A DNA stretch of 63,989 nucleotides, counting the filler, from Kipferlia bialata (lineage: Eukaryota): the NCBI GenBank assembly GCA_003568945.1. It is 5 parts of 5 records of this genome, joined end to end, with 100 filler letters (N's around TTAATTAATTAA, not from the genome) between each part and the next. Parts side by side here need not be neighbours in the genome. Positions count along the whole stretch, not along the records: positions 1 to 12,735 come from BDIP01001038.1; 4 more parts are not named here. One strand, given 5' to 3'. The notes beneath the pieces were generated by a model. That model had not been told where the DNA came from. It saw only the letters and a list, made by a program, of their open reading frames with translations, and did no database searches. Positions 3,901 to 4,802 of this stretch are shown here, piece after piece. Both the position numbers and the translations under genes were made by a program. Position 1 is the first letter of the stretch. Each line of letters opens with the position of its first letter.

Positions 3901-4802
3901 AAGTTGTCTCTCTATTTGATGGTCTTTGATTTATCACATATTCCAAGTATTCTGTTGTGTATATATCTCATGAACATATAGTCGCTTCAATCCCGCTTCA
4001 TACACTATTGTCATGCATGTGTGCATACTGACGTCAGTTGGCTTCCTGTACTCCTTCTACAATGGACGGTTCCTGCAGAAGGTGACATCTTGGTATATTA
4101 TTATTGTTCATATATTCATTCATATATATATATCCATCTTGACTATAATTATATAATGATAATACTATGTATTCATATATATTCATCTTGGACAATCAGT
4201 ATCTTGACACTGACTCTGATACTGATATACACTTATATTTTCAAGATATTGATACTGTCACTGATACTGATTCTGATACTGCAGGTGACATCCTGGACAA
4301 TGAGGATGATTGGACTCGTCATCATGACTATATCTCTCTTAGGTTAGTGTTATATCTGTGTAAATTGTGGATACAATATCTCACACGTAGGATGTGGCTG
4401 GGCCGTGCCCTATACATCCCATATCCTCATACTATATATATATATATATATGTACCCTATTCAATCCAATATATACTATATGCTAATATATATATACTAA
4501 TATATACTATTTACTATATATATATATGTATATATGTATCCATTCATCTCAGGATGTGCCTGGGCCGTCCCCTATGCCTCATCAACCTCCACCCTCTGGA
4601 TACCCATTGCATTCACTGCACTCATGGGTATAGCCAACTCGGTATGTGTAGTTGATACATATGGTATATATACGTATATATATGGAATCCCTCCGGATAC
4701 CCATCGCATTCACTGCCCTGATGGGAATAACCAACAGTGTACGTATACATATTGAATACATATATATACATATGTATACATATAGAAGACGAACTCGGTA
4801 CG

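What the first reader, a model, noticed from the sequence alone, without database searches (positions are those of the whole stretch)
4082..4284. Intron apparently born by AG|GT tandem duplication
Seen: the intron starts ag|gtgacatcttgg and the next exon starts ag|gtgacatcctgg, with a third partial copy (catcttggacaat) near 4185 and (ctgata)-like repeats as filler. Established: duplication of a coding AGGT proto-splice site is a proposed but rarely documented intron-gain route. Inference: the echo process creates new introns.
Basis: partly seen in the sequence, partly recalled or inferred. Interest (0 to 1): 0.75.

Follow-up and report, generated by a model that had tools for sequence, protein, structure and literature searches.

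The report
Intron likely born from duplicated exon
A spliced intron in a transporter gene of the free-living protist Kipferlia bialata begins with a copy of the exon that follows it, so it was likely created recently by the same local DNA duplication process that litters this organism's introns with exon fragments, though rebuilding of an older intron is not excluded.

Summary
Observation confirmed. 4082-4284 is intron 14 of 25 in a Kipferlia bialata DHA2-like MFS gene. An RNA-type contig splices it exactly, GT..AG. Its first 12 bases match the next exon at 11 of 12, the only such case among 25 annotated and 216 roughly predicted introns. An inner copy matches 16 of 19 (0 of 5000 shuffles). 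Removing a later 98-base nested duplication gives a 105-base intron starting with about 23 exon-derived bases; exon echoes here are spaced a median 111.5 bases. The copy carries this gene's own codons, so it likely postdates the paralog split. Against pure tandem duplication: the intron's last 82 bases resemble no flanking sequence, and no intronless homologous DNA was reachable. Best reading: birth by duplication of a coding AG|GT plus filler (0.6); main rival: an older intron whose 5' half was replaced (0.25). The mechanism is known; 'echoes create introns' rests on one case plus one intermediate-like locus. The scan noted a fainter fungal case on other DNA. Stranger side result: echoes differ from exons mostly synonymously (pN/pS 0.16).

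The parts
115..9284 (+). MFS (DHA2/EmrB-like) transporter gene, 5'-partial, 26 exons, 25 GT-AG introns, 570 aa (P0001, GIQ83411.1, Kipferlia bialata)
   Evidence: (one minimal exact parse)
4038..4081 (+). Exon 14, ends ...CAG AAG (Lys326); supplies the AG of the proto-splice site
4082..4284 (+). Intron 14, 203 nt, phase 0, GT..AG, 27% G+C (second lowest of 25); in-frame stops if retained
4080..4093 (+). Junction repeat, copy 1 (donor); reads V-T-S-W in frame, one synonymous difference from the exon
4086..4134 (+). 49-nt unit 1 of an inferred later nested duplication (CATCTTG plus AT-rich filler)
   Evidence: unit 1 vs unit 2 p=0.002 (p=0.048 without the shared first 8 bases)
4135..4183 (+). 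49-nt unit 2 of the nested duplication
   Evidence: (family D14)
4184..4202 (+). Inner exon-derived copy, 16 of 19 identical to exon 4289-4307, 105 nt upstream of it
   Evidence: (family D10)
4204..4281 (+). CTGAY/GATACT filler; CTGAT at 4273-4277 lies 12 nt before the 3' end, where most other introns of the gene have their branch-like motif (10-14 nt)
   Evidence: branch use is inferred
4283..4296 (+). Junction repeat, copy 2 (acceptor AG and start of exon 15)
4285..4342 (+). Exon 15, VTSWTMRMIGLVIMTISLL
55800..56056 (+). Second, intermediate-like locus in another gene: a 25-nt exon tail starting at a coding AG|GT is echoed twice; the last echo keeps an AG (TTAG|GT) but lacks a branch-like motif at the usual distance. 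Use in splicing untested

Best explanation
The spliced 203-base intron begins with a copy of the exon behind it and was likely born when a local duplication with filler repeated a coding AG|GT site in a formerly continuous exon. Shown: the intron is spliced precisely, its start and an inner segment are copies of exon 15, and two similar 49-base units lie between them. Inferred: (1) exons 14 and 15 were one 102-base exon with AAG|GTG (Lys-Val) in the middle; (2) the process that makes exon echoes elsewhere in this gene, with a spacing near 110 bases, repeated AG plus at least 23 bases of the downstream part, 105 bases apart; (3) the first GT became the donor (GTGACA, close to the common GTGAG), the second AG the acceptor, and a CTGAT repeat in the filler the branch point, leaving the protein unchanged; (4) a later duplication around CATCTTG and its repeat added 98 bases. 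The molecular agent is unknown; since metamonads are reported to lack canonical end joining, alternative end joining or template switching in recombinational repair is the likely source.
For: Spliced joint, GT..AG, in an RNA-type contig. 11 of 12 match, unique among 25 introns; null maximum 8 of 12 in 600 pairs. Inner copy 16 of 19, 0 of 5000 shuffles. Reconstructed length 105 against nearest-echo spacings of 76-162, median 111.5, n=24. The copied bases encode this gene's own V-T-S-W-T, whereas the sister paralog P0003 has Y-T-T-W-A (no GT possible) and P0002 V-C-T-W-A, so the copy likely postdates the paralog split; the exon is the source, since the protein aligns without a gap there. 20 of 25 introns carry echoes of a flanking exon against 6 of 239 non-adjacent pairs. 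Echoes copy DNA, not cDNA: 11 of 13 acceptor-side echoes keep AG, 8 of 11 donor-side echoes keep GT, and no spliced junction is copied elsewhere in the gene. Two of the 3 AGGT sites still inside exons (963, 7314) are already covered by echoes. Low G+C and internal direct repeats match new Daphnia introns (PMC4202315, passages). Intron positions move in this family: DNA of a paralog matching P0002 lacks intron 12 (record 3 and its loose ends).
Against: The last 82 bases match none of four candidate sources (upstream exon, rest of exon 15, heads or tails of neighbouring introns): shuffle p 0.22-0.62 under three scorings; last 40 bases against exon 14 p 0.10-0.44, with 4 to 8 of 24 other intron tails scoring as high (local tests p 0.36-0.73). 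The acceptor reads CAG where exon 14 ends AAG, so at least one change is needed. The 3' end looks like an ordinary mature Kipferlia acceptor. No intronless homologous DNA at this position was seen. P0003 begins exactly at the position of intron 11, which hints that the closest paralog shares at least some introns. Only 1 of 216 roughly predicted introns shows the signature.
Confidence: 0.6

Rival explanations
1. An older intron stood here. An acceptor-side echo (intron tail plus head of exon 15) formed inside it, and everything from the old donor to the echo's AG was then deleted precisely, through the AG|GT microhomology or by loss of a recursively spliced first piece. The echo's GT became the donor: the position is old, the 5' half is new.
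For: Acceptor-side echoes are common in this gene (13 listed) and have the same spacing. It explains the mature-looking, non-exonic 3' end. 4 of 25 introns have AG|GT at both junctions.
Against: Needs a second, base-exact event; none of the other acceptor-side echoes abuts the upstream exon. No trace of the old 5' half. The sister paralog has Tyr at this site, so the GT needed is not conserved.
Confidence: 0.25
2. Incomplete RNA- or cDNA-templated repair of an older intron: the spliced junction was copied for about 23 bases into exon 15 and then joined to the old intron's 3' part.
For: Gives the same one-sided repeat. Transcript RNA or cDNA is named as a possible repair template in the discussion of PMC8516963 (passage).
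Against: No other spliced junction is copied in the 9.4 kb of this gene (the only other hit, intron 4, is the donor itself resembling its exon start), and echoes keep intronic AG/GT flanks.
Confidence: 0.08
3. Insertion of a transposon or Introner with a target-site duplication that supplied the splice sites.
For: Introners often take a splice site from their target-site duplication (PMC9860276, passages). Short pieces of the intron match other contigs of run X1 (records 4-8).
Against: Duplications there are 3-9 bases; here 14, and about 25 before nesting. The outside matches are 29-33-base simple repeats, and the window holds no second copy of the intron within 1.5 kb by self-BLAST; the genome was not available for a wider search.
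Confidence: 0.03
4. Chance resemblance, assembly misjoin, or a reverse-transcription template switch across the 10-base repeat that mimics splicing.
For: 10 bases fit on either side of the RNA joint, and run X2 is RNA by guess only and from the same sample.
Against: P about 6e-7 plus an independent inner copy; one DNA contig spans the stretch with no repeated 20-mer; retention gives stops; the protein aligns gap-free with paralogs; the same contig is spliced GT..AG at the neighbouring introns.
Confidence: 0.02

Closest known systems
[quoted passage not shown]
   Same: AG|GT at both junctions, intron start homologous to the next exon, precise splicing, protein unchanged.
   Different: Only about 23 of 105 original bases are recognisably exonic; the 3' part is simple-repeat filler; no intronless paralog DNA is in hand.
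New introns from staggered double-strand-break repair in Daphnia (PMC4202315)
   Same: [quoted passage not shown]
   Different: Repeat is longer (14, about 25 before nesting, against 4-12); metamonads are reported to lack Ku-dependent end joining (PMC8516963); no presence/absence polymorphism is known here.
Potato RdRp intron gain by duplication across an intron-exon boundary (PMC4974935)
   Same: A formerly exonic GT becomes the donor, and the acceptor may come from intronic sequence; most Kipferlia echoes also cross a splice site.
   Different: There the duplicated exon head stays in the gene as added sequence; here exon 14 is not a copy of exon 15 and the protein gains nothing.
Introners with splice sites taken from a target-site duplication (PMC9860276)
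   Same: Match between intron start and next exon start.
   Different: No family of copies seen, repeat far longer than 3-9 bases, nested exon-derived copies inside.

Membership tests
Tandem-genomic-duplication intron (Rogers model) | AG|GT at both junctions | tested here: met
Tandem-genomic-duplication intron (Rogers model) | Intron 5' part is a copy of the downstream exon | tested here: met
   11 of 12 at the start, 16 of 19 inside
Tandem-genomic-duplication intron (Rogers model) | Rest of the intron is duplicated flanking sequence (upstream exon end or further downstream sequence) | tested here: not met
   four candidate sources, p 0.22-0.62; decay could hide it, but it is not detectable
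Tandem-genomic-duplication intron (Rogers model) | Spliced precisely, protein unchanged | tested here: met
   RNA-type contig; gap-free alignment at K326-V327
Tandem-genomic-duplication intron (Rogers model) | Position absent in orthologs or paralogs | not testable with these tools
   no genome held; no related loci; paralogs available as proteins only
Direct-repeat (staggered-break) new intron, Daphnia type | [quoted passage not shown] | tested here: met
   13 of 14
Direct-repeat (staggered-break) new intron, Daphnia type | AT-rich with internal direct repeats | tested here: met
   27% G+C, second lowest of 25; 49-base units; weak as a discriminator, since many introns here are AT-rich
Direct-repeat (staggered-break) new intron, Daphnia type | Intronless allele or close relative exists | not testable with these tools
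   one sample only
Direct-repeat (staggered-break) new intron, Daphnia type | Canonical end-joining machinery present | not tested
   reported absent in metamonads (PMC8516963, passages)
Introner | Family of similar introns at unrelated sites | tested here: inconclusive
   none among local repeats of the window; only short simple-repeat matches in run X1; genome not searchable
Potato-type boundary-crossing duplication | Upstream exon is a retained copy of the downstream exon's head | tested here: not met
   exons 14 and 15 encode consecutive, unrelated peptides that align with paralogs
DHA2/EmrB efflux MFS (TIGR00711), for the host gene | Score above the curated cut-off | tested here: not met
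   151 bits against 230; best family of 44, E 4e-44: DHA2-like, not a member by cut-off

The most novel reading that the evidence does not exclude
Kipferlia has an undescribed, very active process that duplicates about 110-base stretches around exons, apparently from copies that were still coding (pN/pS 0.16), and it keeps creating introns at coding AG|GT sites. A real share of its 124,912 introns would then be lineage-specific gains with readable sources, not ancestral introns, and hundreds of such births could be catalogued in one genome.
Probability: 0.2. Interest if true: 0.8.

Novelty: new variant of a known kind. Interest (0 to 1): 0.5.

Why it matters
Few gained introns have a traceable source. 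This one keeps its exon source and sits in a genome where the raw material, exon echoes, is in 20 of 25 introns of the gene, so birth by duplication can be counted genome-wide from public data. The genome paper favoured ancestral introns for Kipferlia but left independent gain open (PMC5874029, passage), and a later intron study could not include the species (PMC6759080, passage). A prokaryote-like gene with 14.6 introns per kb of coding sequence points to heavy gain. As one case without an outgroup it is a good candidate, not a proof.

Tried and rejected
No whole genome is held, so paralog loci could not be read. Reads were laid only on 3590-4430; the rest of the gene and the 55800 locus have no RNA check, and contigs cannot show minor isoforms. 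No run was on record as RNA in the listing; X2 is RNA by guess and by its spliced joints. Metagenome scan with P0001: 8 pattern matches, 0 relatives. Search for shorter paralog fragments: 0 of 732 candidates. The joint 3641>3804 is the spliced exon 12 laid on its echo; its loose end shows the 3441-3519 copy is the one used. The self-trained gene model recovered only 12 of 25 known introns because it takes echoes for exons, so the 216-intron count is rough; 16 of 232 predicted introns from two genes called on the wrong strand were dropped by eye. Candidate 35115-35051 (minus strand, 9 of 12) was rejected: it is an acceptor-side echo. An eye-catching alignment of the whole intron to exon 15 plus exon 14 is not significant beyond the first 23 bases. 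Lateral transfer of the gene is likely but not shown: after 7 fornicate or near-fornicate proteins, named hits among the best 120 of 754 are prokaryotic or carry prokaryotic family names, but the 45-row quick tree held no other eukaryote and the Atlas lists one Basidiomycota cluster among 10 feature rows. Literature searches found no description of exon echoes or duplication-born introns in Kipferlia; the library lacks most subscription papers, and I did not open supplements.

Full report
Setting. The window is a chain of contigs separated by N spacers; the first runs to about 12,735. A 40-codon frame over one exon found a single protein, P0001, 570 aa, named a partial major facilitator superfamily protein of Kipferlia bialata on a 12,735-base contig (GIQ83411.1). 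An exact spliced alignment gives one minimal parse with 25 GT-AG introns, 14.6 per kb of coding sequence. 4082-4284 is intron 14, phase 0, between Lys326 and Val327. The protein is DHA2/EmrB-like, below that family's cut-off. Its closest relatives are two Kipferlia paralogs, Chilomastix, two unnamed proteins and Giardia muris, then prokaryote-type proteins; these seven form one branch in a quick tree, with P0003 as sister of P0001 at support 88. Lateral origin is likely but untested, as the tree held no other eukaryote.

Observation. The two junctions share 13 of 14 bases, AG plus 12. At +1..+12 the intron matches the next exon at 11 of 12; the next best of the 25 introns has 8, and 600 mismatched pairs reach at most 8; under the gene's donor profile P is about 6e-7. 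The intron head reads V-T-S-W in frame with one synonymous difference. An RNA-type contig of run X2 joins exon 14 to exon 15 with a 203-base GT..AG skip and no other letters; run X1 holds the unspliced stretch in one 900-base contig, which contains no repeated 20-mer. Both runs are of one sample, and X1 may be the source of the window. Retention would give stops.

Anatomy. Two 49-base units (4086-4134, 4135-4183) begin with CATCTTG and resemble each other (p 0.002; 0.048 without their first 8 bases). They are followed by 4184-4202, 16 of 19 identical to exon 15 positions 5-23, which 0 of 5000 shuffles reach. The inner copy shares the T variant with the intron head and the following bases with the exon, so the simplest history is one continuous 23-base exon copy, 20 of 23 identical, later split by 98 bases. 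The original intron was then 105 bases. Its last 82 bases are CTGAY-rich filler with CTGAT 12 bases before the end, the distance at which most other introns of the gene have such a motif. They match no neighbouring sequence under local or global tests. CTGCAG occurs both at the intron end and 3 bases before the end of exon 14, but this is not significant (p 0.10, 4 of 24 other tails as good).

Context. 20 of 25 introns hold partial copies of an adjacent exon, against 6 of 239 non-adjacent pairs, and about a hundred short-range repeats occur across the window (109 self-BLAST rows within 1.5 kb, some of them simple repeats). They are either acceptor plus exon head, upstream of the exon, or exon tail plus donor, downstream. 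Nearest spacings are 76-162, median 111.5, n=24. They keep intronic flanks (11 of 13 AG, 8 of 11 GT) and none copies a spliced junction, so the template is DNA. Intron 14 is the only place where an exon-head copy directly abuts the upstream exon. Its 105-base spacing fits the same process acting on a site with no intron. Two of three AGGT sites left inside exons are already covered by echoes, and at 55800-56056 an exon tail starting at AG|GT is echoed with its AG kept, which looks like the state before a birth; it lacks a nearby branch-like motif and has no RNA check. Among 216 roughly predicted introns only intron 14 reaches 10 or more of 12 (the model found 12 of 25 known introns exactly).

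Age. The copy encodes V-T-S-W-T as in this gene; the paralogs have Y-T-T-W-A and V-C-T-W-A. The 5' half of the intron therefore likely postdates the split from the sister paralog, which cannot have GT at this site. That dates the sequence, not the position. DNA of a paralog matching P0002 runs without a break across the site of intron 12, so positions do change in the family; P0003 starts at the site of intron 11, which hints at shared introns. Neither tells about position 327.

Mechanism. I favour birth in one step, duplication of a coding AG|GT with filler (0.6). The main rival reaches the same sequence in two steps, an acceptor-side echo in an old intron and then an exact deletion (0.25); it explains the mature acceptor better but needs a base-exact second event. 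Incomplete cDNA-templated repair (0.08), a transposon (0.03) and artefact (0.02) fit worse. These odds are my judgement, not computed.

Comparison. It works like the Rogers model (PMC3265369, first of four parts read; PMC3443670, passages, which lists 188 events) but fails one defining test, a duplicated remainder, so I do not file it as a clean member. It fits the Daphnia direct-repeat pattern in shape (PMC4202315, passages) with a longer repeat, in a lineage reported to lack canonical end joining (PMC8516963, passages). It differs from the potato case (PMC4974935, first of five parts read) and from Introners (PMC9860276, passages; Kipferlia is not named in its main text, supplements not opened). 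The genome paper counts 124,912 introns, prefers ancestral retention and does not use the word duplication (PMC5874029, passages). PMC6679479 (passages) reports a reduced spliceosome of 87 of 174 proteins. Seven searches found no account of the echoes. The risk of template-switch artefacts at direct repeats is recalled, not from a call.

Unexplained. Dead copies should collect replacement changes, yet the 24 nearest echoes differ from their exons at 45 synonymous and 24 replacement sites in 749, pN/pS 0.16; third positions show 47 differences against 28 expected even if both copies change freely there (P 6e-4). Either the copies came from a diverged allele or gene copy, or they were once whole, alternatively used exons that lost their inner half. 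In the first case intron 14 could record a crossover between an intronless and an intron-bearing allele.

Verdict. A real, spliced intron with a clear exon-derived 5' end and a probable, unproven birth by a known kind of mechanism, in an unusual genomic setting. Interest 0.5.

Noticed in passing
window 115-9284: Exon echoes in 20 of 25 introns differ from their exons mostly at synonymous sites (45 vs 24; pN/pS 0.16), as if copied from coding sequence or once used as exons; nearest spacing is tightly near 110 bases.
   Followed up: partly
window 115-9284: A prokaryote-like DHA2 transporter shared with Chilomastix and Giardia muris carries 25 introns in 570 codons; 16 of 25 donors follow AG and 13 of 25 acceptors precede G. 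If laterally acquired, all are gains.
   Followed up: partly
window 55800-56056: Donor-side echo that starts at a coding AG|GT and keeps an AG before its last copy: possible intron before birth.
   Followed up: partly
window 3520-3803: Intron 12 is absent from the DNA of a paralog matching P0002 (record 3): gain or loss since the paralog split.
   Followed up: partly
window 5533-6115, 52816-53225, 57400-57760: Serial donor-side echoes, four or five copies of one exon tail with GT, partly re-amplified together with their filler.
   Followed up: no
window 3335-3385 and other acceptor-side echoes: 11 of 13 keep an intact AG, several with a branch-like motif, upstream of the true acceptor; the RNA-type contig skips those it could be checked on (3680, 4391), so the spliceosome passes over decoy acceptors despite a reduced protein set.
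   Followed up: no
window 48166-48200, 49509-49552, 34202 (minus): CTGATA/CTGACA arrays like the filler of intron 14 recur, two of them directly before echoes.
   Followed up: no
window about 43910-43990 and 42000-42040: The segment CTCAGAAGAACTCGTCGTCTGCGGCA occurs twice, about 2 kb apart, flanking a small gene-like region (seen).
   Followed up: no
window 12736-12835, 25571-25670, 38396-38495, 51212-51311 (approximate): N-run spacers with TTAATTAATTAA join separate contigs; neighbourhood across them is not real.
   Followed up: yes
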